Source of the DNA: Schmidtea polychroa
Taxonomy: Eukaryota
DNA: 64,000 nt
Direction of reading: 5' to 3'
NCBI GenBank assembly: GCA_044892525.1
Contig: CM097885.1
Location: forward strand, 4,218,001 to 4,282,000
In this document: positions 8,319 through 53,447 of the stretch, one piece after another
Numbering within the stretch: the stretch's first letter is position 1
Layout of the letters: each line of letters starts with the position of its first letter
The notes under the pieces: generated by a model
What the model saw: only the letters and a program-made list of their open reading frames with translations
The model's database searches: none
What the model was told of the DNA's origin: nothing
Translations under genes and position numbers: made by a program

Positions 8319-8599
8319 ACTAAAATGTTCAATGAGCAAAAACTACTTTTGAAAATATCTTCATAAATCTCTTGGATACACTAAATACTCTGCACTTCTA
8401 ATTAATACTGTAATGGAGTTAAAGTAGGTAGATAGTGGCTTACCGCAACAATTACCCCCCCCCCCCCCGGGTGGGGGGGGGGTGTTGCAACTTTTTTTTT
8501 GTTGCAACATTTTTTTTTGTTGCAACTTTTTATTACGCAATTGTTGCAACTCACATTTTTTGCTTTCAGGGATTTTTGGTCCAAATTTTTTTTTTATCA

Positions 8600-9360: not shown

Positions 9361-9379
9361 GGTAAATTTTTAAAATAAA

Positions 9380-10260
9380 GTAAATAATGGTTCTAAAAAT
9401 TAAAGTAAATTATGGTTCTAAAAATTAAATTAAAGTAAATAATGGTCCAAATTTTTCAATTAAAGTAAATTATGGGTCTAAAAAATTAAATTAAAGTAAA
9501 TAATGGTCCAAATTTTTGAATTACAGTAAATAATGGTTCTAAAAATTGAATTACAGTAAATAATGGTTCTAAAAAAAAATTAAATTACAGTAAATTATGG
9601 TTCTAAAAAATTAAATTAAAGTTAATTAAGGTCCAAATTTTTCAATTACAGTAAATTATGGTTCTAAAAAATTAAATTACAGTAAATTATGGTTCTAAAA
9701 AATTAAATTACAGTAAATTAAGGTTCAAATTTTTCAATTAAAGTAAATTATGGTCCAAATTTTTGAATTACAGTAAATAATGGTCAAAATTTTTGAATTA
9801 CGGTAAATAATGGTTCTAAAAATTGAATTAAAGTAAATTATGGTTCTAAAAATTAAATTACAGTAAATAATGGTCCAAATTTTTCAATTACAGTTAATTA
9901 TGGTTCTAAAAAAATTAAATTAAAGTAAATTAAGGTTCAAATTTTTGAATTACAGTAAATAATGGTCCAAATTTTTGAATTACAGTAAATAATGGTCCAA
10001 ATTTTTCAATTACAGTTAATTATGGTTCTAAAAAATTAAATTAAAGTAAATTAAGGTTCAAATTTTTCAATTAAAGTAAATAATGGTCCAAATTTTTTAA
10101 TTAAAGTAAATTATGGTTCAAATTTTTAAATTAAAGTAATGAATGGGCTCAAATAACTAAATTAAGGTTCTAAAAAATTAAATTAAAGTTAATTAAGGTC
10201 CAAATTTTAAAATTAAGTAATCAATGGTCAAAAATTTAAATTAAAGTTAAATAAGTAAAT
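9380..10260 (+). repeat. Minisatellite of about 28-30 bp (AATTACAGTAAATAATGGTTCTAAAA-like)
   Basis: Many tandem variants, mirrored at about 22920-23530. Confidence 0.9.
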
Positions 10261-10499
10261 TAAAGTAATAATTTTTAAATAAGTAATGTAATAAGTAAAT
10301 TAAAGTAAGATTTTAAAATTTATTAACAAAAAGTTGAAATAATAGAAGGTGTTTGAGAATTGAAATTTTTTAATGAAAATTTTTATGAAATAATTTTTTA
10401 AGTAATTTTTAATAGAAATTTTTATGGAATAATTTTTTAAGATAATTTTTAATGGAAATTTTTATGAAATATTTTTCAAAGACAAATTTTAATAATAAT

Positions 10500-11195
10500 T
10501 CAACAACAAACCAACAACTTAGTACCAACAACCAGTAACTTATGAACATGTATTAACAATCAGATACCTACAACTAGTTACTAACAACCTGCTACCAAAT
10601 ACTTTCAACATGATACCACGTACTAAATAACTCTCAAACAACCAGATACTTACAACCAATTACCAGATACCAAGTACCTACAACTAGTTACTAACAACTA
10701 GTTACCTGATACTAAGTACCTACAACCATCTAACAAGTATTAACAACCAAAAACAAGCAACCAACTAGGTACCAAGTACTAACAACCGACAACAACTAAC
10801 TACCACCTACCAAGTACCTACAACCACATACTAACAACTAGGTACTAGATACCAAGTACATACAACCAACATCAACCTGTTACTAAGCATTATTAACCAT
10901 CTACCAAGTACATACAACCAATTACTAAGTACCTACAACCATCTACCAAGTACATACAACCAAGTACTAAGTACCTACAACCGACTAGCTACCACCTACC
11001 AAGTACCACCAACAACGAGATACCTACAACTAGATACTAACAACTAGCTACCACCTACCAAGTACCAACAATCAACTAACAACCAGGTACTAAGCATTAT
11101 CAACTAACAACCAGGTACTAAGCATTATCAACCAACTACTAACAACTAGATACTAAGCACTGTCAACTAGATACCAAGTACTAACAACCAGATGA
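10500..11195 (+). repeat. A/C-rich strand-biased repeat array (TACCAAGTACTAACAAC variants)
   Basis: Mirrored as a longer G/T-rich array at about 21720-22595. Confidence 0.85.
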
Positions 11196-11698
11196 CCACG
11201 TGAAATTATTAGTTAAATAGGTAAAATAATGTTTAATTTTAAAATTAAGTAATCAATGGTCTAAAATATTAAAGTTAGAGTCAATTTAAGATGAAAGTTT
11301 TCTGGGATTTTCAATGTTAATTTTAGATGCAAATCTTCGTCAATTAATCAATGACCACATGAAATTATTAGTTAAATATGAAAATAAGGGTTATAATTAG
11401 TTGTTTAGTAAATTATGGTGTAAAATTAAGAAATAAAGAATAATTAGGTAAATTAAGGATAAATTAAGGAAAATTAAGGTTCAAAATTTAAAATTAAGTA
11501 ACCAATGGTTCAAATTTTAAATTAAAGCTAAATAAGTAAATTAAAGTAAGATTTTTAAATTTATTATCAAAAGATTGAATAACTACCAACTTTTTTTGAG
11601 AAATGTAATTTTTAATGAAAATTTAAATGGAAATTTTTTTTTTAAGTTAATTTTAAATGTAAAATTTTTTAAGTTAATTTTTAATGGAAATTTTAATG

Positions 11699-11699
<1 letters not shown>

Positions 11700-11756
<57 letters not shown>

Positions 11757-11757
11757 T
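11700..11757 (+). repeat. (AAT)n microsatellite
   Basis: Pure AAT run, mirrored as (ATT)n at about 21134-21187. Confidence 0.95.
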
Positions 11758-12195
11758 CAACAGTTCCCAACAATCGGTTACTAAATATTTTTAACTAGAT
11801 GCTAACAAATACTTTGAACATGATACCACGTACTAACTAACTCTCAAACAACCAGATACCTACAACTAGTTACTAACAACCAACTAAGTATTCTTTATTG
11901 TATTTTATGAAATGTTTTTAAATTAATTTTTTATCTGTCTTTAAAAATATGTTTAATTACAATCAATAGAAAACCTTTTCAAAATGTCTAAATTTAACAA
12001 ACATGTTGACTTTCATCAAAAAACCACAACTCAATCACTTTAAAACACCACGTGAAATTCAAAATAATTTAAATTACAATGAAATACTAATGAATTCTAA
12101 TTTACAAAAACATCTTCTTTTAAATGATAACTTATTATTGCATCGTAAAATCACATTCAATAAATACTTATTGTTGATCAGTTTTATTATATATA

Positions 12196-15100
12196 CTCTG
12201 AGTTTATCCGACAGGATGTTTTGACCCCCTAAGGGTACAGGTCGTAAGGGTACTGGTCGTAAGGGTATTAGTCGTAAAGGTACTAGTCGTAAGGATATTG
12301 CTAACTCTCAACCTCCACCTACCCATTAACTAGCTACTAAGTACTAACAACCAGTTACCTGATACCATGTACTTACAACCACCATCAACCAGATACTAAG
12401 CATTATTAACCTACAATTATATAACAACAATCAGTAAACAACACTCTACCAACTATTAAATACAAGATACCAACAACTAGATACCAACAATCAACTAACC
12501 ACACATAAAAATAATAGCAATTAAATACAAAATATTCTTCATCACATACACTATCTTCTTATCAAAATCTAAAAAGTCAATCAGATACCAACTACCAACT
12601 ACCAAGTACTAACAACCAACTACCTACAACCAACAACTATGTACTAACAAATTGATCTTTAAAAGAAAAATACTCATCACTTGAAAAATTAGATGGAAAA
12701 TTAATTGAACTCAAGACATCAATAACTTGGTAAAAATTGATTAAATAATTGCAAAAATTTAAATTTACTCAAAATAAATATCATAAAAATTTAATTAATA
12801 GACAAGAAAGAATTCTATTCATTAATCATCCAGTAAATAAAAAAAATACTGATCATTCAAGTTGAATCAACTAAGATAAGATTTAGTAGATAATTGATTT
12901 AGATTGAATAAATTAATTGAAATAAAATTAATTTTAATTATTTTTTTTTAAAAATAATACATGTACTCAAATTGATTGACTGAATGCTCAAAATATTCAA
13001 AAATCAGTATAAATTCATTAAAATTATCAATGTCATCAATCTACAATAAAAATAATTATCATTAAATTCCAAAAGAGACTAGAAAACTAACAAACCAGAA
13101 AATTCATTCAAATGACAATAATTGGTATATTCAAGCGAATTCTCTAATAAAATCATCTAAAAAGAATCATTTCGCCTGAAATATCTCTATTTTTAAAGAT
13201 TAGTATCTTATCGATAAGTACTTGTTAAATATCATATATTCACCTCAAACTAACAAGATTCCTTAAAATCCCTTAAATGACTATATTTCTACCCTTAATC
13301 AATATTATTACAAATAATTCAATAAAATCATCTAAAAAGCATCAAATTTCCCAAAAATAACTCTATCTTTAAAGGTTAGTATTTTATCGATAAATATCCT
13401 TAAAAGGTTATATATTTACCTCAGACTAATAAGATTGCTTAAAATCCCCTTTAAATGACTATAATTCTAACTTTAATTCGTATTATCACAAATATTTCCC
13501 TATAAAACAGGTAAAATCATTAACTAAATAATTTATAAAATCTAATGATAAAACCGGTTATAATTAAATTTTTGTTAATCACTGTACTCGAAATTTAAAA
13601 TAAATATTGCTTGAAATTTGACTGTACAATATAACTGAGTAGTTGCATAGAAAGATTAAATTTATCCATATTTCTTCAAATGATCATTTTTACCGATATC
13701 CAACCGATTTAATTACTAATTAAAATCACCCGATAGATTTCTCCCAATAAAGATCAATTTTCTTTAGTCGACGTTTTAAATCAATATTTCCAACTTTTGT
13801 CGTTGTCCGTCTAAATAAAGATAAAAAATAATTTAAAGTTGATATCAATCCCAATTATCTGTAAAGTTTTCATTGTCAAAACCAAGTAAATAGATTATCC
13901 CTACTTAATAAAACATTGTTCTAAAACATAAATCTAAATTAATTTACTGTGCATTAATCACAACCTAATAAAACAATATAATTATTATTGATTCATAACT
14001 AATGTATTGCAATTTCCCTTAAAACATTGATATTTTACCAACATCATCCTTAAAAGATCATATATTCCCATCTTAACCCATCCTTCATTAAATTCAATCG
14101 AATATATCTCCCTTACAATGATATATTCCTACCTTATCCGATCTCTCATTAAATCTAACCAACTATATCTCCCTTAAAAGATCATATTTTCCCATCTTAA
14201 CCGATCTCTCATTAAAGTCAATCGACTATATCTCCCTTACAATGATATATTCCCATCTTAACCCATCCCTCATTAAATTTAACCAACTATATCCCCTCAA
14301 AAGATCATATTTTCACACCTTATCCGATCTCTCATTAAATCTAACCGACAATATCCCATCTTATCCGATCTCTCACCAAATATTTCTACCCTTTTAAACA
14401 TCTAACCGAATATATCCTTCAATTCTATCCACTTGAATCCTCCTTTAATTCACTCAATCCTCTTAAAATCCTTAGAGAACTTCAAAAATATGACTTAATT
14501 GTTACAGACACCAAATATTCTTCCATTGAAATAATTTAGTAGCTATGTAGTAAGAGTTCACTAAAAGATCAAAAATCAATATTTTCTACAAATATTCACC
14601 ATCAAATACCTAACTGGAGATAATACATATATTAATTGATGATAATTCTTCAGCTATTCAACCAATCATTTTCAAGCAGTAACAGCAAACTAAATTTCTG
14701 TATATCCTACAATAATTATCAAGTAAATTTAAAGTCCTTGATAAGGTTAACTGTTTCTTAGCTTATGTTTTTTAAAGTTCATCAAAGTGTAAATATTCTT
14801 AGAAAAATATTGAAAAATTATTTATTCAAATACATTACAAAGTTATCATCAAAAATCACTTAATTATTAACCTAATTGTCAATGAAATTAATTTTTATTT
14901 AAAAACTATTCAATAAAATACAACTAATTATCAAGAAATTAATTAAATTTATCAGTCAACATGAAATTCTTAGAAAATTATTCAATATCCCCATAAAAAT
15001 TTATCCACTTGATTATTGTAAAAACTCTAATTATTAACATTGAAAATAAATTTTATTTAAAATTAAAAAACCAATCAATAAAAATACATTCAATTATCAA

Positions 15101-15508
15101 GAAATTAATTAAATTTACCTTAGAATTAGCATTAAATTACAGAAATTCACAAAAATAATGGAAATTCACAAAAATGATAAAAATTCACAAAAATAATAGA
15201 AATTCATGAAAATGATAGATATCCACGAAAAATTACGGAAATTCATGAAAATATTAGAAATTCACAAAAAATGATGGAAATTCATGAAAATGATAGAAAT
15301 TCATAAAAATGATAGAAATTTACTTGAATAAAACCATCAACTCTAAAAATTATCAATGCCTTAAACAACAAATTTGTCTAAATAATCATTCAAATAAAAG
15401 CATTAAATACCTTTACGACTAATACACTTACGACATGTTGAATGTGAGTAGTACCCTTGTGAGCAATACCCATAGGGGGACAGAATATTTTTTCGGATAA
15501 ACTCAGAG
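12196..15508. mobile_element. Nested inverted-repeat-bounded unit within the left arm
   Basis: TATA|CTCTGAGTTTATCCGA at 12196 and TCGGATAAACTCAGAG|TATA ending at 15508. An imperfect IR of about 110 bp carries GTCGTAAGGGTA repeats. Confidence 0.55.
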
Positions 15509-16109
15509 TATATATTAATTAACTCATTCAAATTTATCATTGAATCAGTAAATTATCATAAATTTCGATAAAAATTCTAAAGTGGTAAGCAATTGTAGGA
15601 TAAAAAGAGAAATATTCTTTAAACTTTGATAAAAATGAAGGTGGTAAGAATCTTCATTAAAGTGAGGAAATTATTCATTACTCGATGATAAATTCAAATG
15701 GGTGAAAATAATTGATAGAATAATTCATTAATGGATCATTGAATGGGCATAGATAAGATGAAGGTTGATAAGAATGCAAATATATTAATTGAATTTATTT
15801 AAAATTATTTCATAAAATTCATAAAAAAAAAAACTTTTAAAAGAAATATTTGTGGAGATGTTTTAGGTGAAAATTAATCAAAATCGGCGGAATATAATTG
15901 ATTAAATATCGAGGATGGGGGTTATAATTAATGGAAAATCAATGGGATACAAATGATTAAATAGTGGAAAATTCGGGAATATAAGTGATTAATTAATGGA
16001 ATATTGAGAATCGGAGGAATATCAATGAGAAGGATATATAATTTAAACTAGTTTATTACATAACAAGCCGCGACTAGTTTATTACATAACAAGCCGTGAA
16101 TGATAATTT

Positions 16110-16235
16110 ATTGAGAATTATTGATTAGATCTTTTTTTTAATTTTTGACTAAAATAAATTCTAAAATAATAGCAAATTATTACTAAAATGTTTTAATTTG
16201 CATTATGTATTTCAAAAACAATGATCATAAAAGAT

Positions 16236-16283
<48 letters not shown>

Positions 16284-17175
16284 CCCTTTTCATTCAAAAT
16301 AAGTTAAATATTCAAATATAAGTCTTAGAAAATACAATCAAAATTAAATTTTAAAAATATAAATTTTATAAGTTTTTCAAATTCTCGAATAATGTAAATA
16401 AGAAATTAATCTATTACCAGTTACATACTTTTAAACTTATTGATGGAATAAAACATTAGAAATAAAGTGTTTTTTTTGTATAAGTACTTGTAATAATAGC
16501 TATATATTATTAAATTTACTATTCTACACTAAATATTTTGAAAACAAATATCATAATATGAATTATATTACTCCTTTCAATCAAAGTAAATTAAATGTAT
16601 CATTCAAATACAATTAAAATTAAATCATCAATTTAATACTTTAATTTAAAAATAAAAAATTTATATGTAAATGCGAATAAGTGTATTAACAGTTCTAAAC
16701 TTTTTAAACTTATTGATTAGGCAGTAGAAAGTAACTTTTTTTTCAAAAAGTCCTTTAATATTGTATTCTATTTATTATCAAATTAACTATTTTACACTAA
16801 AATATTTCAATTTAGAAAAAAAAAATCATAATATTGAATGTGATACTTCAATCAAAATAAGTTAATACTCAAATATATGTCTTATAAAGTACAATCAAAA
16901 TTAAATACTTCACTAAATTTTAAGTAAAGTTTTTTAAATTCTCTGGTAAATGTTAACAAGATATTAATTTATTAATCATTATAGACTTTTTATACTTATT
17001 ATCGGAATTAAACAATAGAATGATTTTCAAAATATGTACAATTTAAAAATAAAATTAAAATTAAATTACATACTTTAAAAATGTTGGTAAAATACCATTC
17101 ACAGCTTGATATTCAAAATATGTACAATTTAAAAATAAAATTAAAATTAAATTACATACTTTAAAAATGTTGGTA
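16110..17175. repeat. Central spacer of the palindrome
   Basis: Contains (TA)n at about 16240-16281, three degenerate units of about 285 bp starting near 16285, 16572 and 16846, and a duplication of about 85 bp (about 17024-17190). Confidence 0.7.
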
Positions 17176-17657
17176 AAATACCATTCACACCTTGTTATGT
17201 AATAATTTAAATTACATATACTTCTCACTTATATTCCCCCAATTTTTAAATATTCCATTATTTAATCACTTATATCCCCCCCCCCAATTTTCCATTAATT
17301 ATTCCCCTCAGATATTTCTTTTAAGATTTTTTTTATTAAATTTATGAATTTTATGAAATAATTTTAAATAAATTCAATTAATATATTTGCATTCTTATCA
17401 ACCTTCATCTTATCTATGCCCATTCAATGATCCATTAATGAATTATTCTATCAATTATTTTCACCCATTTGAATTTATCATCGAGTAATGAATAATTTCC
17501 TCACTTTAATGAAGATTCTTACCACCTTCATTTTTATCAAAGTTTAAAGAATATTTCTCTTTTTATCCTACAATTGCTTACCACTTTAGAATTTTTATCG
17601 AAATTTATGATAATTTTACTGATTCAATGAAAATTTGAATGAGTTAATTAATATATA

Positions 17658-20600
17658 CTCTGAGTTTATCCGAAAAAATATTCTGTCCCCCCTATGGGTA
17701 TTGCTCACAAGGGTACTACTCACATGCAACATGTCGTAAGTGTATTAGTCGTAAAGGTATTTAATGCCTTTATTTGAATGATTATTTAGACAAATTTGTT
17801 GTTTAAGGTATTGATAATTTTTAGAGTTGATGGTTTTATTAAATATTCAAGTAAATTTCTAACATTTTTGTGAATTTCCATCATTTTTTGTAATTTTCTA
17901 TTATTTTCATGAATTTCCGTACTTTTTTGTGAATATCAGTAATTTTTGTGGATTTCTAACATTTTTGTGAATTTCTTTGATTTTTATAAATTTCTATTAT
18001 TTTTGTGGATTTCTAACATTTTGGCAAATTTTATGTTTATTGAATGAATATTTAAAAATTTAGAGTTAGTTCTAAGATAAATTTAATTAATTTCTTGATA
18101 ATTTTAAATAAAAATTTATTTTTAATGAGGTTAATAATTAGAGTTTGTACAATAATCAAGTGATAGGATAAATTTTGATGAGGATATTGAATATTTTTCT
18201 AAGAATTTCATGTTGACTGATTAAAAGTTTTAATGATGATAAATTTAATTGATAAATTTAATTAATTTCTTGATAATTAGTTGTATTTTTTTGAATAGTT
18301 TTTAAATTTTAAATTAATTTCATTGACAATTAGGTTAATAATTAAGTGATAGAATAAATTTTTGATGATAACTTTGTAATATATTTGACTAAATAATTTT
18401 TTTCAATAATTTTCTAAGAATATTTACTCATTGATGAACTTTAAAAAACATAAGCTAAGAAACCAGTTAACTTTATCAATGACTTTAAATTTACTTGATA
18501 ATTATTGTAGGATATACTGAAATTTAGTTTGCTGTTATTGCTTGAAAATGATTGGCTGAATCGATGAAGAATTAAGATAAATCAATATATATCATCTCCA
18601 GTTAGGTATTTGATGGGTGAAATAATTGTAGAAAATATTGATTTTTGATCTTTTAGTGAACTCTTACTACATAGCTACTAAATTATTTCAATGGAAGAAT
18701 ATTTGATGTCTTTAACAGTTTATGAAAAGTCATATTTTTGAAGTTCTCTAAGGATATTAAGAGGATTGATATATATTAAAGGGCTCAAGTGGGTGGAATC
18801 TTTAAGGAAATTAAGGGATATAATCGGATAGATGTTTAAAAGGGTAGAAATATTTGCTGAGAGATCGGATAAGATGGGATATTGTCGGTTAAATTTAATG
18901 AAAGATCGGATAAGGTGGAAATATATCATTGTAAGGGAGATATAGTCGATTGAATTTAATTAAGGATGGGTTAAGATGGGAATATATCATTGTAAGGGAA
19001 ATGTTGGTAAAATATCAATGTTTTAAGGGAAATGTCAATACATTAGTCAGTTATGAATCAATAATAATTATATCGTTTTATTAGGTTGTGATTAATGCAC
19101 AGTAAATTAATTTAGAACAATGTTTTATTAAGTAGGGATAATGATCGATTTACTTGGTTTTGACAATGAAATCTTTACAGATAATTGGGATTGATATCAA
19201 CTTTAAATTATTTTTATCTTTATTTAGACGGACAACGACAAAAGTTGACCATTTGAAGAAAGTTATTTTATTGAATGGATAAATTTAATCTTTCAATGGG
19301 ACCTAGTCAGTTATATTTATTTTAAATTTCGAGTACAGTGATTTACAAAAATTACAGTGATTAACAAAAATTTTATTATAACCGGTTTTATCATTAGTGA
19401 AATATGTATGATAATAGGAATTAAAGTTAGAATTATAGTCATTTAAAGGGGATTTTAAGCAATCTTATTAATCTGAGGGGAATATATGACCTTTTACGGG
19501 TACTTATCGATAAGATACCAATCTTTAAAGATAGAGGTATTTCAGGGATATTTGATGCTTTTTAGATGATTTTAATGAATTATTTGTAATAATATGAATT
19601 AAGGGTAGAAATATAGTCATTTAAGGGATTTTAAGGAATCTTGTTAGTTTGAGGTGAATATATGATCTTTAACAAGTACTTATCGATAAGATACCAATCT
19701 TTAAATATTGATATATTTAAGGGAAATGATTCTTTTTAGATGATTTTATTAGAGAATTCACTTGGATATACCAATTATTATCATTTGAATGAATTTACTG
19801 GTTTGTTAGTTTTCTAGTCTCTTGGAATTTTATGATAATTATTTTTATTGTAGATTGATGACTTTGATAATTGTAATGAATTTATACTGATTTTTGAATA
19901 TATTGAGCAATCAGTCAATCAATTTGAGTACATGTATTACTTTTAAAAAAAAATAATTAAAATTAATTTTATTTCAATTAATTTATTCAATCTAAATCAA
20001 TTATCTATTAGATCTTATCTTATTAATTTATTAACTTAGTTGATTCAACTTGAATGATCAGTATTTTTTTTATTTACTGGATGATTAATGAATAGAATTC
20101 TTTCTTGTCTATTAATTAAATTTTTATGATATTTATTTTGAGTAAATTTAAATTTTTGCAATTATTTAATCAATTTTTACCAAGTTATTGATGTCTTGAG
20201 TTCAATTAATTTTCCATCTAATTTTTCAAGTGATGAGTATTTTTCTTTTAAAGATCAATTTGTTAGTACATAGTTGTTGGTTGTAGGTAGTTGGTTGTTA
20301 GTACTTGGTAGTTGGTAGTTGGTATCTGATTGACTTTTTAGATTTTGATAAGAAGATAGTGTATGTGATGAAGAATATTTTGTATTTAATTGCTATTATT
20401 TTTATGTGTGGTTAGTTGATTGTTGGTACTTGGTATCTTGTATTTGGTAGCTGGTACAGTGTTGTTATATAGTTGTAGGTTGATAATGCTTAGTAGCTGG
20501 TTGTTGTGGGTTGTAAGTGTTTAGTATTTAGTTGTTTGAGACCTGGTTGTTAGTACATGGTAGTTAATTAATGAGTAGGTGGTGGTTGAGTGTTACCAAT

Positions 20601-20686
20601 AGCCTTACGACCAGTACCTTTACGACTAATACCCTTACGACCAGTACCCTTAGGGGGTCAAAACATCCTGTCGGATAAACTCAGAG
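17658..20686. mobile_element. Mirror copy of the nested IR-bounded unit in the right arm
   Basis: Same CTCTGAGTTTATCCGA ends flanked by TATA. Confidence 0.55.
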
Positions 20687-21133
20687 TATATATAATAAAA
20701 CTGATCAACAATAAGTATTTATTGAATGTGATTTTTACTTTGCAATAATAAGTCAGTAGTTATCATTTAAAAGAAGATGTTTTTGTAAATTAGAATTCAT
20801 TAGTATTTCATTGTAATTTAAATTATTTTGAATTTCACGTGGTGTTTTAAAGTGATTGAGTTGTGGATTTTTGATGAAAGTCAACATGTTTGTTAAATTT
20901 AGACATTTTGAAAAGGTTTTCTATTGATTGTAATTAAACATATTTTTAAAGACAGATAAAAAATTAATTTAAAAACATTTCATAAAATACAATAAAGAAT
21001 ACTTAGTTGGTTGTTAGTAACTAGTTGTAGGTATCTGGTTGTTTGAGAGTTAGTTAGTACGTGGTATCATGTTCAAAGTATTTGTTAGCATCTAGTTAAA
21101 AATATTTAGTAACCGATTGTTGGGAACTGTTGA

Positions 21134-21188
<55 letters not shown>

Positions 21189-24100
21189 CATTAAAATTTC
21201 CATTAAAAAATTAACTTAAAAAATTATTTCATTAAAATTAACTTAAAAAATTTTACATTTAAAAATGACTTAAAAAAAATTTCCATTTAAATTTTCATTA
21301 AAAATTACATTTCTCAAAAAAGTTGGTGGTTATTCAATCTTTTGATAATAAATTTAAAAATCTTACTTTAATTTACTTATTTAGCTTGATTTTAATATTT
21401 GAACCATTGGTTACTTAATTTTAAATTTTGAACCTTAATTTTCCTTAATTTATCCTTAATTTACCTAATTATTCTTTATTTCTTAATTTTACACCATAAT
21501 TTACTAAACAACTAATTATAACCCTTATTTTCATATTTAACTAATAATTTCATGTGGTCATTGATTAATTGACGAAGATTTGCATCTAAAATTAACATTG
21601 GAAATCCCAGAAAATCTTCATCTTAAATTAACTTTAACTTTAATATTTTAGACCATTGATTACTTAATTTAAAAATTAGACATTAATTTACTTATTTAAC
21701 CAATAATTTCATGTGGTCATCTGGTTGTAAGTACTAGGTATCTAGTTGTTATTACTTGGTTGATGATGCTTAGTACCTGGTTGTTGACGGCTGTGAGTAG
21801 TAGGTATCTGGTAACTAGTTGTTAGTATCTAGTTGTAGGTATCTCGTTGTTGGTGGTACTTGGTAGGTGGTAGCTAGTCGGTTGTAGGTACTTAGTACTT
21901 GGTTGTATGTACTTGGTAGATGGTTGTAGGTACTTAGTAATTGGTAATTAATGATTAGTACCTGGTTGTTGTTGGTTGTTAGTACTTGGTATCTAGTACC
22001 TAGTTGGTTGATAGTACTTAGTAACTAGTTAATGGGTAGGTGGTTGTAGGTACTTGGTAGGTGGTTAATAATGCTTAGTAACAGGTTGATGTTGGTTGTA
22101 TGTACTTGGTATCTAGTACCTAGTTGTTAGTATGTGGTTGTAGGTACTTGGTATCTGGTAATTGGTTGTAACTAGTTAATGGGTAGGTGGCAGCTAGTTG
22201 GTAGGTGGTTGTAGCTAGTTAATAGGTAGGTGGTTGTAGGTACTTGGTAGGTGGTAGTTAGTTGTTAGCTGGTTGTTGTCGGTTGTTAGTACTTGGTACC
22301 TAGTTGGTTGCTTGTTTTTGGTTGTTAGTACTTGTTAGATGGTTGTAGGTACTTAGTATCAGGTAACTAGTTGTTAGTAACTAGGTGTAGGTACTTGGTA
22401 TCTGGTAATTGGTTGTAAGTATCTGGTTGTTTGAGAGTTATTTAGTACGTGGTATCATGTTGAAAGTATTTGGTAGCAGGTAACTGATTGTAAGTACTTG
22501 GTAGCAGGTTGTTAGTAACTAGTTGTAGGTATCTGATTGTTAATACATGTTCATAAGTTACTGGTTGTTGGTACTAAGTTGTTGGTTTGTTGTTGAATTA
22601 TTATTAAAATTTGTCTTTGAAAAATATTTCATAGAAATTTTCATTAAAAATTATCTTAAAAATTTCCATCTAAAATTATCATTGAAAAATTTTTCATAAA
22701 AATTTCCATTAAAAATTAACTTAAAAAATTATTCCATAAAAATTTCTATTAAAAATTACTTAAAAAATTATTTCATAAAAATTTTCATTAAAAAATTTCA
22801 ATTCTCAAACACCTTCTATTATTTCAACTTTTTGTTAATAAATTTTAAAATCTTACTTTAATTTACTTATTACATTACTTATTTAAAAATTATTACTTTA
22901 ATTTACTTATTTAACTTTAATTTAAAATTTGTGACCATTGATTACTTAATTTTAAAATTTGGACCTTAATTAACTTTAATTGAAAAATTTGGACCATTAT
23001 TTACTTTAATTGAAAAATTTGAACCTTAATTTACTTTAATTTAATTTTTTTAGAACCATAATTAACTGTAATTGAAAAATTTGGACCATTATTTACTGTA
23101 ATTTAATTTTTAAGAACCATAATTTACTGTAATTTAATTTTTTAGAACCATAATTTACTGTAATTCAATTTTTAGAACCATTATTTACTGTAATTCAAAA
23201 ATTTGGACCATTATTTACTGTAATTCAAAAATTTGGACCATAATTTACTTTAATTGAAAAAATTGAACCTTAATTTACTTTAATTTAATTTTTTTAGAAC
23301 CATAATTAACTGTAATTGAAAAATTTGGACCATTATTTACTGTAATTTAATTTTTAAGAACCATAATTTACTGTAATTTAATTTTTAAGAACCATAATTT
23401 ACTGTAATTTAATTTTTTAGAACCATTATTTACTGTAATTCAAAAATTTGGACCATTATTTACTGTAATTCAAAAATTTGAACCATAATTTACTGTAATT
23501 TAATTTTTAGACCCATTATTTACTTTATTTTAAAAATTTACCACGCTTTTTTAGTGTAGACCACCTTTTTCTATTGAAATTCTCAGGACCAAGGAGACCC
23601 GCATTAATTTACTTTGAAAATTCCATGCTTTTTTAGTGATAATCAGATTTTTGTATTGAAAATATCCTGAGACCATCGAGACCCCCTCACTATAGTGTGA
23701 AAAAACCATGCTTTTTTATTGAAGACCGCCTTTTTGTATTGAAAAAATTTTTTTGTATTGAAAATCCCAGGACCATCGTTTTTGTATAGAAAAAATTTTT
23801 TTGTATTGAAAATCCCAGGACCATCGTTTTTGTATAGAAAAAATTTTTTTGTATTGAAAATTCCAGGACCATCGTTTTTGTATAGAAAAAATTTTTTTGT
23901 ATTGAAAATTCCAGGACCATCGTTTTTGTATTGAAAAATTTTTTTTGTATTGAAAATCCCAGGACCAAGGAGACTCACCTCACTATAGTCTGAAAAATCC
24001 TTGGCTTTTTTAGTGTAGACCACCTATTTGTATTGAAAAATTTTTTTTGTATTGAAAATCCCAGGACCATCGAGACCCCCTCACTATAGTGTGAAAATTC

Positions 24101-27100
24101 CATGCTTTTTTAGTGGTAGTCGGATTTTTGTATTGAAAAAATTTTTTTGTATAGAAAATCCCCGGACCATCGAGACCCCCTCACTATAGTCTGATAAAAA
24201 AAAAATTTGGACCAAAAATCCCTGAAAGCAAAAAATGTGAGTTGCAACAATTGCGTAATAAAAAGTTGCAACAAAAAAAAAGTTGCAACAACCCCCCCCC
24301 CCCCCCCCCGGGGGGGGGTGATTGTTGCGGTAAGCCACTATCTACCTACTAGTTAACTTGAAGGACAAGTGACTATTTGAACAATTGATTCGGCTTTACA
24401 ACAATTATTAGCTCTATTTTCTTTATTTTCACTTTATTCATTATTTTGGTTATCAATGATGATTTCCGCTGTAAATTTGTCTTTTATCATGCTTGTGATT
24501 TGCCTGTTTTTAGCTCCTTTGACAGGACTCTCTCGCATCACTCATTCTTTCAAATTAGATTATCAAATTTCAAGAAACCAAAGAATCTGAACAAAATTAA
24601 ATTATTTTATATCAATTTGACAAGCTGCTAATATAATTAAATTGATTTATTTATATCAATTAATTAATTAATTTGTATTTTTTAATTAACATTGTTCAGG
24701 AACCATTTATTGATTTAAAATGAAAAAAATTCATAATTATTTATTACAGTTTACACGAATTTGCGCAACACCAACAATCTCTAAAAATTTGTAAAATATA
24801 CTGAAAAATTTCGTGAAAACAGAATAATTTCCGGAATTTCGATTTTTCCAATAAATTTGTATAAAAATTTTATGTTTTAAATTTGTGCCAAAATATTTAA
24901 ATAGCACAAATATCCTTCAAATATTCCAAAGTTTTTCAATATGTTGAGGTTGAAACTTTATTACTATGCAAACTTGAATTGAAATATGTCTACTTTTTAT
25001 ATTATCAATAACTAATTTTTGACTGACTTTCTCATCCTGTGTTATCTCAAATTTCTTATCAAATTACAACTGGTTAATTTTAAAATTTGAAAAATTATAT
25101 GTTAACTTAATTATTGATGTGCAATTGCATTGTGCGATTCTATTATGATATTAAAGCTTTTGTTGGAATAAATCTAACCAAAACCAAAGCAACCTCACCA
25201 AATTGACTTAAACTCAATTTCACATAAATGTAACTTACAAGTTAAACACCAGTATGTTGGCGAGCACATGAACGAATAAAACAGTATTGAACTGGAATTG
25301 TTCTAGCAAGATCACTTTCATGATAAAATTGTTGAGGATGCCTAAATAGTGATATTGTAAATAATTAGAATAACTATGGGAAAACCGATAGGGTGATTGT
25401 GATAACATTCTGAAACTTGGAGATGAAAAAAGAAAGGAAAAAATTGAGAAATGAGCTCCTGTATAGCGGAGTGCAGACGAACGATTTTTGGGGAGTAGGA
25501 GACTTGTTAACAACTCAAGCATTGGAGAAAACAAATGACTAATGTTTCAAGTTGCCAATAGCAGCTGAAGAAATATGTGGAATCTGAATGCAACAAGGAA
25601 GCCACTCTACTCTAGAAGATATAGATGCAGTGCGATGAGTATACTTGGAAATCAAAGATGAATAGGAGGATGATATTCCTGTCATTGAAGTACCAATACA
25701 AAAATACTGTTCTCTAAAAGATTATAGAAAAGGCAACTTCCAATTAACCAAGAAACCGGGAAAGGAAAACTCCAATTTCCCAAAATTAAAACAATTAATT
25801 GGGATAATTGTATTGTCAAGGAAATGTCGAATATTCCAGACAATCAAGCCTAATTAATACCTCACGAACCGAACAAAATAAAAATTAGCGGTGGATAAAA
25901 AGAAAATTATGCCAAGAAAATGAAACTCAAAAAAAGAACACTGGAAAAGTGTTAAAGGGATAAAATAATATTGAGTACAGCAAAATATCTAAATAGGTTT
26001 TGTTATTAATATAAATAATTATAGATAATTTGTTCGAGACATATGTAAATCACTTTAATACAATTAACTTAATGAATAATAATTATTTTTCAAATATTTC
26101 CTCACTTGAAAAATGTCTTGTTTTGTTGTGACCCAGCTGTCACTTTAATAATAAGTAAAAAGATTATAAATTTCAAAGACCAATTTTGAAACGAACAATT
26201 AGATTTCAGGATGAAATCCAATCAAAAAATAACGTTGCTTATGTTCAGAAAGATAAATTTAGAGAGAAAATTGAGAAAGATGAATAAAATATTGATGATG
26301 TTATAAGAAGCAGAGTACTATGCTTATTGCTAAGGCTAGAAAATTAGTAACAGAACCTGACGCAAACTCTCAGAAATAGACAGAACTATTGATGAAGCTA
26401 ACGAAAATACCGTTATTAAAACTGTTATTAAACTTGGTGCAGAATGTTATGCAGCAAGTGTGGAAAAGCGAAAGGTATTCGAAAACTTTATGAAATAATT
26501 TGGCCAATCTCTACGAAAAATTAAATGGTTAGACCCAATATTCATCAAAGCAGATGCATCAGACGATGCTTGAGGCTCCCATGATAAATTATCATAACCG
26601 CCTGCAGCGCTGGCTTAACCAGTGGATATGATAACTTTGGGTATGTTAAATACCTAGGGTTAGTGGTGAAACGAATGTGATAAATCAAATATATGGGGAG
26701 AATAAGAATAGAATAAAATACAAAATATATTCATTAAAACAGAATATTACGTATTGGTGGTATCATTATTTGTATAATTGTTATAACTATTATAGGAAAA
26801 TAAAATAAATTTGTTATCACATTAAGAATTATTATTATCATTATGTATATTATTATCATTATCATTATTGTCATTAGTATTATAAGTATTAATAATAATA
26901 ATATTATTATTATTATTAATTATTATTACTTATTATTTATTTAATATTAATAATTAAAATTAACAAACAACAAAAGATACTTTGAAACTGTCAAATTTCA
27001 ATTATTATCAAAAATCATATCTATTTCCATTGATCGTACAAATTTCTAATAAATCGAACGCAACTGAGTTTAACACATAAGTAACATTTATCTTTTTCTT

Positions 27101-36751: not shown

Positions 36752-37093
36752 GTTGCTAATGAATTAGACAGTGAAAAATTACAAATCCTTGCAAATAAAC
36801 TTGTTGCATTTTTGGCTGAAAAAAGACTAATTTCACAAAAATATTCTAATGTGGTAACTCTTCACATGACTCTGCTCAATGCTTCTTTTCTCTCAGAACA
36901 GGATCTTGCACTGGATACTGCTAATGACGCAAAAAATCCAAAACATTTCGATTGCTCGAATATTCTGAAGAAATTTTCTGATTGGGACTTTGGATTTTTA
37001 GATGTCAATGAAATTATTCTTTCAAAGCGTCATGGTACTTCACAAGGAAGTTATTACGCTAAGGCCGCAACATTTAAACTCGGACCAGAATAG
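36752..37093 (+). CDS. ASCC1: ASCC1 terminal exon 3 (second HxT motif of the 2H phosphoesterase fold)
   Basis: VANELDSEKLQILANKLV...VTLHMTLLN...FDCSNILKKFSDWDFG...ILSKRH...YY..A, ending at TAG. In frame with exon 2. Confidence 0.88.
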   Translation, partial: VANELDSEKLQILANKLVAFLAEKRLISQKYSNVVTLHMTLLNASFLSEQDLALDTANDAKNPKHFDCSNILKKFSDWDFGFLDVNEIILSKRHGTSQGSYYAKAATFKLGPE

Positions 37094-39559: not shown

Positions 39560-40330
39560 TATTAAATTGAGTTATGACTCTTCTTACATGTTATTCTTTT
39601 AAATTAGCCTGTGTCCTGCTAAGCGGCCTTATCGCTCTGAAACGGGCCTTTAAAATACCAAAAGCATTTTCAATAGGATTGAACTGTGGAGAGTAACTTG
39701 TTTTTTGCATCTAAATTTTTTTTTACTACATTACTAAGATGAAAAGGCACATTGTCTCAAATTACATAGTCATCTTGTTTTTATCTACAATTTTAGTCAA
39801 AAAACGTAAATACCTTTCCGTATTGTAGGCACTATCTTTTATTTCATAATCCACTATCCCGTTTATTATTATACATGTCAACAATGAAATATTTGTACCT
39901 TTTGATTTTGGTACCCTAATATATGCATTTGTGTTTATCGGGCTGTAACCATAGTCTGTTGATGTATGAAGGTTACATCGTGTTTCATTAATATAAAAAA
40001 GTCTGCTATCTGGTATCTTTCGCAGATTAATTGCATAGTTTTGCCTTTTAAATCTGTGATCTGGCAAATCACAATATCTACAAGCTTTGTTAATCGTTTT
40101 GTGGTTCCAATTTTTTTAAAATTTAATGAAATAGAAGGCTGAGAAATATTAATGCCTCCTTCCATCATTTTTTCTTAAATCCCAACTGTGTCAAGTTTTT
40201 TTCCATAGCAATTATTTCAAAAAGACTGCGTTGCACAGGTACTTCCGAGGATTATTTACGCTCACGTTTTATGAAAAAGTTTCGATCGTACCTCCATTTT
40301 CAACGTGCGTATAGTAATTTTAAAGTTTTT
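39560..40330 (-). mobile_element. Tc1/IS630-like DDE transposase pseudogene
   Basis: FYINET..N..T..YGYSP, KGTNISLL..I...G, DNVPFH and YSPQFNPIENAFGILKARF, with frameshifts. Confidence 0.8.
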
Positions 40331-42308: not shown

Positions 42309-42775
42309 TTACGTTGATGTCGACCTTTCTTGTCGCTCATACTCGGCTAATCTAGCCTTCTTTAATTTTTCCCGGATGTTCCGTCCCAATCGTTTTCTTT
42401 TGGGTTTCTCTTTCACGGCCGGAGGGTATATTGCTGTTAGCTCCACGGTCAACGGCCGGATTTGGCTGATTGCGGCCCCGTGAACCACTTGCTCATTGCG
42501 CTCGGTTTCTAACGCGCGGAGTTGGAGCTTCAGTGCCCGGATCTCCATCTGATCCTGCGTGGCTTGAGTTTGTAGTTGGAGGACCTGCGCTACCTTCTTT
42601 TTCATGTCCTCGGGACTGAACCAGGTGCCTTCGAGTTCTCGGCACCTCCCTTTGAGCTTGTCCACTCATACGCGGAGCTCCTCGGCCTGTTTTTGGGCTT
42701 CTTCTCTGTCCTTTCGTAGATTTTCAAATAGTTTGAACACTAGACAAAATTCAATGATTACCTTCTTGCAGCATA
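42309..42775 (-). pseudogene. Unknown coiled-coil protein with EGTWFSP motif and basic tail (in-frame TGA upstream of the listed ORF)
   Basis: ORF 42309-42665 extends upstream through one TGA. It shares EGTWFSP..MK with 49847-50500. Confidence 0.5.
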
Positions 42776-46891: not shown

Positions 46892-47267
46892 CAGTGCTTT
46901 CCAACCTTTTCATGCTTGTGACACACTTTTTAGACTTCCATCATTTCGCGACACAGCAAATCAGTTTTTACCAGAAAACCAGACGTCATACAACTTACGC
47001 CATATGGTAAACCGTTATACAAGAGACAATGAAACATATTTAAATATAAATATCGAATTCCAACGATTAACTAATAAATAGGGTAAACAAGCGTTCTTGC
47101 AGCTAAAACACGACGGACTATATATGTGTATTGTATTTCAGTCTAACAATCATTAAAAATTTTATAAAATTAAGGGACTCTGTGGCTTTTCATTATGTTC
47201 ACGCGACACGCCTATGCAGAGCTGCCGACACACTAAAGTGTCGCGACACACCGGTTGGAAAGCTCTG
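46892..47267. mobile_element. Intact hAT (Charlie/Buster-like) MITE, 376 bp
   Basis: TIRs CAGTGCTTTCCAACC and GGTTGGAAAGCTCTG (14/15 match). 8-bp TSD TGTTAGAA at 46884-46891 and 47268-47275. Subterminal CGACAC repeats. Confidence 0.92.
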
Positions 47268-48867: not shown

Positions 48868-49846
48868 AAGAATTAGGAGTTTTTCCATAATACTAATCAA
48901 ATTTCGATGTGTCTGGAAAATCTGCCGTGATGTCATATCAGTTACTCATTGAGGACCACGACATGCATGCATCGCACCTACTCGGATAGTAGAGAGAAAG
49001 TTAACATTGCTATTACATAATTACAGCAAGGGAAATATTGAGGTTGTGGGTACGAGCAGATAGACTTCGTCATCCGAAAATAGCTGACTGCTAAGAGTAC
49101 TGAGAGTACAACGTGATGATTTATAATATAAGCATGCATAGCGACGTTTCAAGTAACTTTCGTAGTACAAACAGACGACAATATTTATACACAATCACTC
49201 CCTGTTTAGCGTCGCTATGACGACAGTTACGGCGAAAGTTTGAAATAGAAAAATTTTGATTTTAATAAAAAATTGAATACTAGTAATTCGTGAACTCCAT
49301 GTCTGACTAACCTGATTTATGACCGCGCCAGAGAACATTAGCCGCATCGAATTACCTTTTTAACTTAAAACCCAAGGTATAAGACACAATATAAAAATAT
49401 ATTTGGATAAAATAATAAATATAATTTACGATGATAAAAATAATAATAAAAATCCAATAGTAATATAGTTATTGGTAATTGTCAAACCCCGAAAACAGAC
49501 ACAAGGTTGTTATAAGTGAATAGAGTAATCTGAGAAGTCCCAGTTTCTCTTCATTGAATTTCAAACGCTTGAGTGGTTTATCTTGAATGTGAGAGGCTTG
49601 AATGGGTTTAAGTATGGTCATTTGGTATGCACGTGTGAGAAATTGTCTGATTTTATGACTAGGGGGTACGATAAAACTCGCGTCGTGAAAGTATAATTGA
49701 CGATTAAATAATGGTTGAAGTGCAAATGTAAACTTCTTAATCTTTAGATGACTACATCCACCAATTCTGGGAAAAATCTTCGTCCTTGTTTCTCCTGAGA
49801 TGATAAAAATGCGGATATCGCGCAGCTCCATCTGTATATCGGGGAA

Positions 49847-50500
49847 TTGAAAAAGAGAATTGACCTCTACGAAGGAACGTGGTTCTCCCCGCCACAAATG
49901 AAGGAAGAAAAGAGTAAGATTTTACGTCTGGAGCACTGCCGTGACAGTCTCCTAGAAGAGAGTAGGTGTCAGAGGCTAACTATAAAAGCCCAATCCGAGG
50001 CACTTCATAAAGTATATTCTGAGTCCGAAATAGCGAAGCGATATCCAATACAAGATGGGACCAACGTGTTCCCAGTGCACCACCAATCTTCAGAGCCAGC
50101 AACAACGGGTTGTAAGGGGCATGGCCTGCATTTGCCACCAATTCCTGCCCCAGTTCTCTCAGGCTATAGGCCTATGGCAGGTGGCCCATCGGATCCCATC
50201 TTGGCCCCGATCCTCGTATCACATATCGCATCATCTCCAACAGAAGCCACATTGCCACATCGGAAGCGCAAGAGGCCGACACGCTCGGAGAAAAATCAGA
50301 AGCGTAGAAACGCTATGGCCGCACTCGAAGCTTCGTTGTCCGTGGCACAGTCGACGATCAAGGAAATCTCATCCACCTATTCAATCCCCGCAAAAGAAAT
50401 ATTCCGAGTAGTCCCAGCCGACAGCATCAAATTCCTCGAAGATCGCCGGCTACCCGTTGACATTGACGAAATGATCGCTGAGGGAGAAGTTTTTCAGTGA
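49847..50500 (+). CDS. Unknown protein (217-aa ORF, probably the 3' part of a gene): coiled coil, EGTWFSP motif, Pro-rich linker, basic NLS-like cluster
   Basis: Long GC-rich ORF in AT-rich DNA, sharing a motif with 42309-42665. Confidence 0.55.
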   Translation: MKKRIDLYEGTWFSPPQMKEEKSKILRLEHCRDSLLEESRCQRLTIKAQSEALHKVYSESEIAKRYPIQDGTNVFPVHHQSSEPATTGCKGHGLHLPPIPAPVLSGYRPMAGGPSDPILAPILVSHIASSPTEATLPHRKRKRPTRSEKNQKRRNAMAALEASLSVAQSTIKEISSTYSIPAKEIFRVVPADSIKFLEDRRLPVDIDEMIAEGEVFQ

Positions 50501-51029
50501 TTCGACGCGCCATCAGCCTCGATTCTTTTCAGTTGTGAACAAACATCGCGATGATCTATGATATCTTCTCAGGAACTGTACTGCATGATTAGCTTTCTAA
50601 GTGTCTTTTCTGTGTATTAACCGTTGTATAGTATATTTTTCTTACCTTAATATAATTTTCGTTGTGTTAAGTGCGTTATTGGTATGAATTATTATGTAGT
50701 TGGTATAAATAAACTGGTAAATTTGAATGTATGCCAATGGATAAAGGTCGTCCCCTTGGACCAGGGTCGAACCGTGTTATGTGTGAGAGTGTGGGTAAGA
50801 CCTTCTATGGCACCTTAGAACCCGAACCTTGAGTGGGTTAATAGTAGTCCTAAGGCAGGGGTTCACCTGTTAACCAACCCCAACCCATGTGTGCATCACC
50901 AACGTGTAATATCTCCACGGGCTCACATGAGGGATATTGGTAAAATCATTATGGATATGCTGGGGAAGGGTCTGAGCGAAACGAAAACGATTGTATGCCT
51001 TGGACTAAAAATTTCTTTCCTCCCCACAT

Positions 51030-52273
51030 ACGCCAACATATGGAATAAAAATTTGGCGGTTATGCGATTCCTAAACAGCCTACCCACTCGGCGGAATTCC
51101 ATATACAGGTAAAGTTCACAACACCAGAGCGTTTAGACTTGGAAGAAAGGTCGTTGAAAATCTTTGTGCACATATTTTGGGACAAATCGCAATGTAACTA
51201 TGGACAATTACTCTAAAACTAAAGAATTAGCTGAAGGTCTTTTATCTAATGGTCTAACTTTAGTAGGTACTCTGCTAAAAAATAAGGCCTGTGTTCCACC
51301 CGAATTTCTGCCAAATAAAAGACAGGAAACATATTCAACTTTATTTGGTTTTCAAAATTGCATCGCATGTACCCAAGCCAGGTAAAGCAGTAATTTTTTG
51401 TCAACAATGCACCATGAGGACAATTTAACCGAAAAAAGATAGTTATGTCAGAAATAAATAAATGTTATGACTTAACCAAAGGAGGTGTTGATACTTTGGA
51501 TCAAATTATTCACGAATATATTATAAAGAGAAAAACTAATCGTTGGCCATTAGCTTTTTTTATGAATAGGTTGTCAGTAGCTCGGTGCAGTACGACATTC
51601 TGGTAACCTGGGGGGAGGCTGCTGCACACATTTTTTTCATTTCGGTTACGTAACTGCTGCAGTGGGTTACAATTATTTTTTCTGGGATTTTCTAATAGAA
51701 AAAAGGGTCTTTCGAAAAAAATCCATGATTTTTCTGACTATAGTGAGACGGTCTCCTTGAACCTGAGATTTTCAATACAAATATCAGTCTACACTAAAAA
51801 ATCCATGATTTTCTGACTATAGTGCGGGGTCTCCTTGAACCTGAGAATTCCAATACAAAAATGGTCCTGAAGAAAAAAGCCGGATTATCGTGCTACAGCA
51901 TGCTACTAACTACATACTTTTATGAATATAATAGATGGCACAGGAATTGCTGCATATGTTCTGTTGATGAAAAAATTTTCGTATTGTAACCACAGGAAAC
52001 GCAACATACGAAATTTATTCCTGCAAGAATTGGTTGAATCTCTAGTTGAACCTTACATAAGAAAGAGGCAAAATAACAAAAAATTACACTAATCGTCCAA
52101 AAATGCAATAAAAACTTATCTTGGAGCTTTGCTTACTGAAAGTTCTTCTAGCTGACCTTCAACTTCCACTTCAGGTTAAAGCCACCGAAAAGGAAACGGT
52201 GTCATTTATGTTCTTCAAATTACATGATATAATGTGATTTTATTTTACACAGTTCAGCTACTCAGTAACGAGG
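51030..52273 (+). mobile_element. piggyBac transposase pseudogene with right terminus
   Basis: YGIKIW, GIPYTGK, NRNVTMDNY, LTLVGTL.KNK, STMH and TKGGVDTLDQ...KRKTNRWPLAFFMN/IIDG. Ends ...GTAACGAGG|TTAA at 52273. Confidence 0.88.
51565..51918. mobile_element. 354-bp miniature Polinton-like element inserted in the piggyBac ORF
   Basis: TTTATG is duplicated at 51559-51564 and 51919-51924. The ends AATAGGTTGTCAGTAGC and GCTACTAACTACATACT resemble the 8423 terminus. Internal ACTATAGTG..GGTCTC and ATTTTCAATACAAA repeats are shared with the giant element. Confidence 0.75.
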
Positions 52274-52284
52274 TTAATTCTTAG

Positions 52285-52402
<118 letters not shown>

Positions 52403-53226: not shown

Positions 53227-53447
53227 GGGGGGGGGGGCAGTGAGCACCCTGATGCTTGGCTGTGCATATGGCTGTGCATTGATCAATATCTGGCATTCAG
53301 GGGGATTCTATATCTGTTAGCATTGGCTCATTCACCTGTGATGCAATTATTAGGATTGAATTATTGCATGGCGAGGCAGGCAGGGGGGGGGGGCTGTGAG
53401 CACCCTGATGCTTGGCTGTGCATATGGCAATGTATTGATCAATATCT
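53227..53447 (+). repeat. Direct repeat of about 64 bp (polyG-GTGAGCACCCTGATGCTTGGCTGTGCATATGGC...GATCAATATCT)
   Basis: Copies at about 53227-53291 and 53383-53447. Confidence 0.85.

What the first reader, a model, noticed from the sequence alone, without database searches (positions are those of the whole stretch)
51559..51924. A 354-bp miniature relative of the giant palindrome, with a reconstructable insertion site
Seen: a 360-bp interruption splits the piggyBac motif RWPLAFFM|NIIDG, and removing it restores the frame. The reverse complement of its right end (AGTATGTAGTTAGTAGCATGCTGTAGCA) matches the giant terminus at 20 of 28 positions. It carries the same ACTATAGTG/GGTCTC/TTTTCAATACAAA subterminal repeats, and TTTATG flanks both sides. 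Inference: this is a second, independent 6-bp-TSD insertion of the same system, a MITE-sized Polinton derivative that suggests the minimal cis elements. Caveat: the duplication can also be read as 11 bp (TTTTATGAATA).
Basis: partly seen in the sequence, partly recalled or inferred. Interest (0 to 1): 0.78.

Follow-up and report, generated by a model that had tools for sequence, protein, structure and literature searches.

The report
Single collapsed Maverick-end relic in piggyBac
A 354-base insertion in a dead piggyBac jumping gene has a 6-base footprint and ends like those of virus-like Maverick elements, but no second copy of it turned up in the runs examined, so it is likely a one-off collapsed fossil of a larger element rather than a new family of mini-transposons.

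Summary
51565-51918 (354 bp) is flanked by TTTATG and interrupts a piggyBac transposase relic. Paralogous piggyBac contigs skip 360 or 361 bp here, and a full-length relative runs straight through the motif. Similarity to the 15.9-kb palindrome (8423-24350) far exceeds shuffles (135 vs max 32). New here: both ends form a decayed 39-bp inverted repeat (27/39). Four other contigs carry the right terminus and stop at 51918/51919, which favours the 6-bp over the 11-bp duplication. The MITE reading fails. The internal junction and the left terminus appear only on the locus's own contig, and relatives continue into a G-run that the mini lacks. It is best read as an old, single, internally collapsed relic of a diverged subfamily with Maverick-type ends, broken at the subterminal C/G hairpin. 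It does not show which cis elements are minimal. The Maverick label rests on ends and TSD; no autonomous partner could be checked because no genome is held. The scan noted the giant palindromes before, elsewhere in this genome, but not this mini.

The parts
51559..51564 (+). left copy of 6-bp target site duplication TTTATG
   Evidence: empty paralogs skip 360 bp
51565..51603 (+). left terminus, 39 bp, decayed inverted repeat of the right end (27/39); begins AATAGG where the giant begins AGTAGG
   Evidence: no other copy at 80% likeness
51604..51693 (+). left subterminal leader: G-run (51610-51615) without the giant's partner C-run, then T-runs and TGCA-type boxes; from 51643 shared with dozens of other contigs
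   Evidence: (no hairpin, z -1.1)
51694..51879 (+). about 2.3 subterminal repeat units (79-bp spacing, ACTATAGTG at 51737 and 51816) in the orientation of a left arm
51879..51881 (.). internal deletion junction: repeat unit joined to the right terminus with 1-2 nt of possible microhomology, 3-4 nt from where relatives have a G-run
   Evidence: single-copy in X1 and X14
51880..51918 (-). right terminus, 39 bp, reading AGTATG from the end; 20/28 to the giant; shared at 82-87% by four other contigs
51919..51924 (+). right copy of TSD TTTATG
51024..52140 (+). host: 5'-truncated, multiply broken piggyBac (PGBD4-like) transposase relic, residues about 254-512 of relative P0109
8423..24350 (.). related giant palindromic element (15,928 bp), TSD AGTTAA, identical 30-bp ends, subterminal C/G hairpin, no Pfam match above cut-off in 34 internal ORFs scanned

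Best explanation
It is a single, old insertion with a 6-bp target duplication and Maverick-like ends, likely the remnant of a larger Maverick-type element that a Maverick integrase would have inserted into a piggyBac copy and that likely lost its interior afterwards in one deletion. Shown: insertion into piggyBac, TSD, two termini in register, left-arm repeats joined directly to a 39-bp right end, junction seen only at this locus, and the same junction in a second sample whose allele differs by 7 of 302 letters. Inferred: integration by a retroviral-like integrase supplied by the parent or a helper. Inferred: the deletion began at the subterminal C/G hairpin or G-run, where replication stalls, and was sealed by slippage or end joining on 1-2 nt of microhomology; a long inverted-repeat parent would make such a collapse easy. 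The relic has no predicted function and has decayed neutrally since.
For: Empty paralogs skip 360 bp in X1 (1 contig) and X2 (2 contigs) and 361 bp in X14; uninterrupted piggyBac sites also occur in organism C. Junction 51856-51879 is covered only by the locus's own contig in X1 and X14. All four other contigs with the right terminus leave the mini at 51880/51881, and a G-run ends 3-4 letters further in. The giant folds a C/G hairpin at the same depth (z -2.6 and -4.2), which both mini ends lack. The structure is asymmetric: about 315 bp of left arm, 39 bp of right arm. Decay is evident: piggyBac paralogs differ by 10-13%, terminus relatives by 16%, the two ends by 12 of 39. G-run deletions in C. 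elegans break within 3 bp of the G motif (PMC4654259, passages). 96% of vertebrate Maverick loci are degraded fossils (PMC8097293, passages).
Against: No longer allele at this site was seen, so deletion after insertion is not distinguished from deletion before it. The two ends differ more than the two internal repeat units do (12/39 versus 5/62). At a pairwise divergence of 0.21 the ends fit (P 0.10) but the units do not (P 0.006); at 0.10 the reverse holds (P 0.0003). G4 deletions are only 50-300 bp long and the relatives' G-runs are short for a canonical quadruplex. Contig sets are filtered: X1 and X2 lack the locus's own left half, and siblings decayed below 80% would be missed. No autonomous Maverick with these ends was seen here.
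Confidence: 0.58

Rival explanations
1. The 354-bp unit arose before integration, as a defective product of extrachromosomal Maverick replication or as a rare short non-autonomous element, possibly with ends from two subfamilies, and was itself integrated. A 39-bp right end would then be enough for the integrase.
For: Both termini are complete and in register, and the TSD is intact. The ends pair in the predicted single-strand fold. The ends differ more than the internal units, which fits ends that differed from the start. Intact Maverick TIRs can be as short as 46 bp (PMC8097293), and polB-less polintons stay mobile (10.1101/2025.02.07.637071, passages).
Against: No second copy of the junction or of the left terminus. 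The fold is not better than shuffles (z -1.34, 8 of 100 shuffles as good). The break coincides with a deletion-prone G-run edge.
Confidence: 0.27
2. The mini and the giant belong to a foldback-type cut-and-paste family unrelated to Mavericks, whose transposase binds the subterminal repeats.
For: Neither element has a Maverick gene (0 of 34 giant ORFs scanned reach a Pfam cut-off). Subterminal tandem repeats are typical of foldback elements (recalled). IS3EU/GingerRoot also make 6-bp TSDs (PMC10045372, passages).
Against: IS3EU/GingerRoot ends are TA..TA or TG..CA, not AG..CT. AGT-periodic ends with a 6-bp TSD match Mavericks (secondary peak at offset 3). Earlier scan notes, unchecked here, report that such palindromes share ends with an autonomous Maverick in this genome.
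Confidence: 0.1
3. The duplication is 11 bp (or 10 bp) and the fragment was pasted in by break repair or by a Mutator-like enzyme, not by a Maverick integrase.
For: An exact 11-bp direct repeat exists. The left end begins AATA, identical to the target bases after the TSD. The empty site is the same under both readings.
Against: Relatives end at 51918, not 51917. Both ends are in register with the giant only under the 6-bp reading. The giant has a clean 6-bp TSD.
Confidence: 0.05

Closest known systems
Maverick/Polinton elements (PMC8097293, four passages read; PMC6431247 and PMC3014272, passages read; Kapitonov and Jurka 2006 not held, recalled)
   Same: 6-bp TSD; AG..CT ends with AGT periodicity; terminal inverted repeat
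   Different: 354 bp against 12.7-24.6 kb for intact vertebrate elements; no genes; inverted repeat only 39 bp at 69%; first six bases match (AGT)2 at 4 of 6 positions on each end
Gene-less palindromic Maverick satellites noted earlier by this scan in the same genome (AI notes, unchecked), including the 15.9-kb element in this window
   Same: end type, 6-bp TSD, subterminal repeat with ACTATAGTG / GGTCTC / TTTTCAATACAAA
   Different: about 45 times shorter, asymmetric, older, a diverged subfamily, lacks the C/G hairpin, single copy in the runs laid
MITEs and internally deleted non-autonomous DNA transposons (recalled definition)
   Same: short, non-coding, TIR and TSD
   Different: no amplification detected; TIRs poorly conserved
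G-run (G-quadruplex) deletions repaired by polymerase theta in C. elegans (PMC4654259, passages read)
   Same: one breakpoint 3-4 nt 3' of a G-run, minimal microhomology
   Different: those deletions span 50-300 bp and need canonical G4 motifs; the size deleted here is unknown

Membership tests
Maverick/Polinton | 6-bp target site duplication | tested here: met
   TTTATG; terminus position fixed by relatives and register test
Maverick/Polinton | terminal (AGT)2 or (AG)3 motif, AG..CT ends | tested here: inconclusive
   right end reads AGTATG, left AATAGG, giant AGTAGG: 4, 4 and 5 of 6 to (AGT)2
Maverick/Polinton | TIR of 46-1447 bp | tested here: not met
   39 bp at 27/39 against the range in PMC8097293
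Maverick/Polinton | pPolB, integrase, ATPase, protease and capsid genes | tested here: not met
   no stop-to-stop frame of 70 aa or more lies wholly within the 354 bp; giant: 34 of the 50 ORFs of 40 aa or more listed in 11200-21300 were scanned, none above a Pfam cut-off
Maverick/Polinton (non-autonomous derivative) | ends shared with an autonomous Maverick in the same genome | not testable with these tools
   no genome held; pattern scans of viral and metagenome contigs empty; only unchecked AI notes say so for the giants
MITE | short, non-coding, with TIRs and TSD | tested here: met
MITE | many copies of uniform structure | tested here: not met
   junction only on the locus's own contig in X1 and X14, absent from X3 and X13; left terminus no other copy in X1, X2, X14, X15; limit 80% likeness, filtered contigs
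IS3EU/GingerRoot | TA..TA or TG..CA termini with 6-bp TSD | tested here: not met
   termini A..T of the AG..CT type against PMC10045372
piggyBac (host element) | DDE_Tnp_1_7 transposase | tested here: met

The most novel reading that the evidence does not exclude
The 354-bp unit was itself integrated by a Maverick integrase, making it a MITE-sized Maverick passenger. One 39-bp end without the C/G hairpin or subterminal repeats would then suffice for integration, and a hidden, old low-copy family might exist below 80% identity.
Probability: 0.2. Interest if true: 0.6.

Novelty: new member of a known kind. Interest (0 to 1): 0.27.

Why it matters
As a collapsed fossil it matters little on its own. 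It shows that an older, diverged subfamily with these ends was active before the young palindromes, and that the subterminal C/G hairpin is a likely break point, which would be one route by which these 16-kb elements are removed from the genome. If it moved as a 354-bp unit it would bound the cis needs of Maverick integration, which I did not find described: a phrase search for non-autonomous Polinton or Maverick gave 1 paper, about Tlr1, and searches listed no title on MITE-sized Mavericks (listings read; only some papers opened). Repbase entries and subscription papers were not searchable; I recall that Repbase lists non-autonomous Polintons.

Tried and rejected
Public contigs stood in: 18 runs were listed and 6 of them laid (X1, X2, X14, X15; X1, X14, X3, X13). 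X14 and X15 match the window without differences on their own-locus contigs and may be its source, so they are not independent. The zero depth at 51579-51609 in X1 and X2 is not read as absence, since X1 holds the right junction. Absence of the terminus in X3 and X13 is likewise no proof. Summed depth was not used as copy number. Pattern scans for the terminus or repeat found 0 matches in viral contigs and metagenome contigs. Pfam scan of 34 giant ORFs gave four weak hits, all below cut-off, none Maverick-related. The mini as a single strand folds no better than shuffles. The empty site cannot separate a 6-bp from an 11-bp duplication, because both give the same sequence. Earlier scan notes had nothing near this place or like this sequence; the giant's end gave one irrelevant bacterial hit. 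A paper search for near-precise excision of palindromes gave 0 hits, so that analogy is recalled only. PMC8502044 has no planarian passage. The host's identity was not established: the ASCC1 exon is about 35-45% identical to named animal proteins; 'flatworm' comes from earlier AI notes. No supplements were read.

Full report
Observation. The window carries TTTATG at 51559-51564 and 51919-51924, and the direct repeat can be extended to 11 bp. The 354 bp between the 6-mers interrupt a piggyBac transposase relic. Two of the three flank pieces scanned hit Pfam DDE_Tnp_1_7 (E 4e-7, and 0.007 below cut-off). A full-length relative, P0109, continues through RWPLAFFMNMLDAAG, and tblastn places its two halves on either side of the insert. 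Named relatives of P0109 are PGBD4-like. The relic covers only about residues 254-512 and has further stops and frameshifts, so removing the insert restores the frame only locally.

Similarity to the giant is real. The giant runs 8423-24350 with AGTTAA on both sides and identical 30-bp ends. The mini's right end matches its terminus at 20 of 28 positions. Scanning both strands of the window gave 4 sites at 18/28 or better: the giant's two ends, this one, and one at 18. The mini aligns to the giant's right and left kilobase with scores 135 and 98, against maxima of 32 and 37 in 300 dinucleotide shuffles each; the opposite orientation scores 24 and 29, no better than shuffles. BLAST identities are 71-87%, apart from two 20-bp hits at 95%. 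Both ends peak at offset 0 against the giant (17 and 20; next best 12 and 11 at +3, reflecting AGT periodicity).

Anatomy. From the left: a 39-bp terminus, a G-run, a T-rich leader, then about 2.3 repeat units in left-arm orientation up to 51879, joined directly to a 39-bp right terminus. In the giant the terminus is followed by a C-run/G-run hairpin (z -2.6 and -4.2; 1 and 0 of 200 shuffles as good). Neither mini end forms it (z -1.1 and 0.6). The whole mini can pair its ends but folds no better than shuffles (z -1.34).

Public contigs. No genome is held. Of 18 runs listed, six were laid at 80% likeness. Empty sites: joints skipping 360 bp in X1 (1 contig) and X2 (2 contigs) and 361 bp in X14 (1 contig); none was among the joints shown for X15, with 21 rows not shown. 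On the right junction, organism C (X13) gave 6 contigs and organism B (X3) 3, all on the piggyBac side only; the loose letters of two X13 contigs read as the uninterrupted upstream piggyBac sequence. So the insertion is real and derived. The filled allele is also in X1, with 7 differences in 302 letters, so the present form is older than the split of those alleles.

TSD length. The empty site is the same under the 6-bp and 11-bp readings. The termini decide. Of 8 contigs laid in X1 and 4 in X14, three and one carry only the right terminus (5-7 differences in 39), with unrelated outer flanks. They end at 51918 (3 of 4) or 51919 (1 of 4), not 51917. The X14 contig may be the same locus as one in X1, so these are three or four loci. 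With the register test this favours 6 bp. The longer repeat arises because the left end begins AATA, like the target bases; whether by decay or by repair at insertion is open.

Copy number. The junction region 51856-51879 is covered only by the locus's own contig in X1 and X14. All four terminus-bearing contigs leave the mini at 51880 or 51881, and where enough letters are shown a G-run ends 3-4 letters further in. The bin 51579-51609 has depth 0, 0, 33.4 and 33.1 in X1, X2, X14, X15, the last two equal to the locus's own contigs. In contrast, the interior from 51643 is shared by dozens of contigs (33-82 counted at 51643-51672 in X1) and the repeat by more. The parts are common; the 354-bp arrangement is not. 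Limits: contigs are filtered (X1 and X2 lack the locus's own left half), X14 and X15 may be the window's source, and siblings below 80% would be missed.

Age. PiggyBac paralogs differ from this copy by 12%, 10% and 13% in organisms A, B and C, and terminus relatives by 16% (counts, summed). The mini's ends differ at 12 of 39; against the giant, 6 of the 9 differences in the first 28 bases lie on the left end and 3 on the right. The two internal units differ at about 5 of 62. These do not fit one clock: the ends fit a pairwise divergence of 0.21 (P 0.10) and the units 0.10 (P 0.40), each rejecting the other's value (P 0.006 and 0.0003). Either the units were duplicated or homogenised later, or the ends differed from the start. 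This is unexplained and keeps the rival alive.

Mechanism. Shown: insertion, TSD, termini, asymmetric junction, no second copy seen. Inferred: a longer element with these ends was integrated by a retroviral-like Maverick integrase, giving the 6-bp duplication (PMC8097293 and PMC10045372, passages). It then lost its interior in one deletion whose right break sits at the outer edge of the C/G hairpin, with 1-2 nt of possible microhomology. G-run deletions in C. elegans break within 3 bp of the motif but span only 50-300 bp (PMC4654259, passages), so the analogy covers the break position, not the size. Collapse of long inverted repeats by slippage is recalled; a search for it gave 0 papers. I put this reading at 0.58, integration as a ready-made mini at 0.27, a non-Maverick foldback family at 0.10 and an 11-bp or repair origin at 0.05.

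Comparison. It works like a relic of the Maverick system but is not a Maverick by membership: no genes, and a TIR below the 46-1447 bp range. The giant has no Pfam match above cut-off in 34 of the 50 ORFs listed for 11200-21300. The link to an autonomous Maverick comes only from earlier scan notes on other palindromes in this genome, which I could not check; four pattern scans were empty. IS3EU/GingerRoot share the TSD length but not the ends. It fails the MITE test of amplification. Papers seen as passages: PMC3014272 (no non-autonomous Polintons in anole), PMC6431247, PMC8097293, 10.1101/2025.02.07.637071 (polB-less polintons stay mobile), PMC5499653, PMC8532177 (planarian Polintons are piRNA targets), PMC4654259, PMC10045372, PMC8502044. 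Kapitonov and Jurka 2006 is recalled. No supplements were read.

Verdict. A real, well-bounded insertion, correctly linked to the giant's end family, but on present evidence a single decayed deletion relic. It does not define minimal cis elements unless a second copy with the same junction is found. Interest 0.27; new member of a known kind.

Noticed in passing
window 8423-24350: Giant palindrome with TSD AGTTAA; arms 73-87% alike over long blocks with 100% stretches; both ends carry a strong C-run/G-run hairpin about 23-70 nt in.
   Followed up: partly
window 46892-47267: 376-bp element with short inverted ends (CAGTGCTTTCCAACC / GGTTGGAAAGCTCTG) and an 8-bp duplication TGTTAGAA; looks like a hAT-type MITE (seen; family label recalled).
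   Followed up: no
window 49799-50500 (+) and 42309-42665 (-): Two unannotated GC-richer ORFs share the motif EGTWFSP followed by a coiled-coil-like stretch; no Pfam hit. Possibly diverged copies of a retroelement ORF.
   Followed up: no
window 4110-4853 and 36752-37093: ASCC1-like exons (KH and AKAP7_NLS profile 1-106, then 110-208) lie 32 kb apart, with the giant palindrome, an actin fragment and antisense Isy1-like exons between them.
   Followed up: partly
window 52271-52277 and 52288-52400: Possible piggyBac right end (GAGG then TTAA) followed by a long (AT)n tract; the left end of the piggyBac was not found.
   Followed up: partly
window 39762-40115 (-): DDE_3 (Tc1/mariner-like) fragment, below Pfam cut-off.
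   Followed up: no
window 53227-53291 and 53383-53447: 65-bp direct repeat at 94% next to G-runs.
   Followed up: no
window 51718-51879: Both repeat units of the mini read TTGAACCTGAG where the giant reads TTGGTCCTGAG, so they were duplicated or homogenised after leaving the giant's lineage; they are closer to each other than the two termini are.
   Followed up: partly
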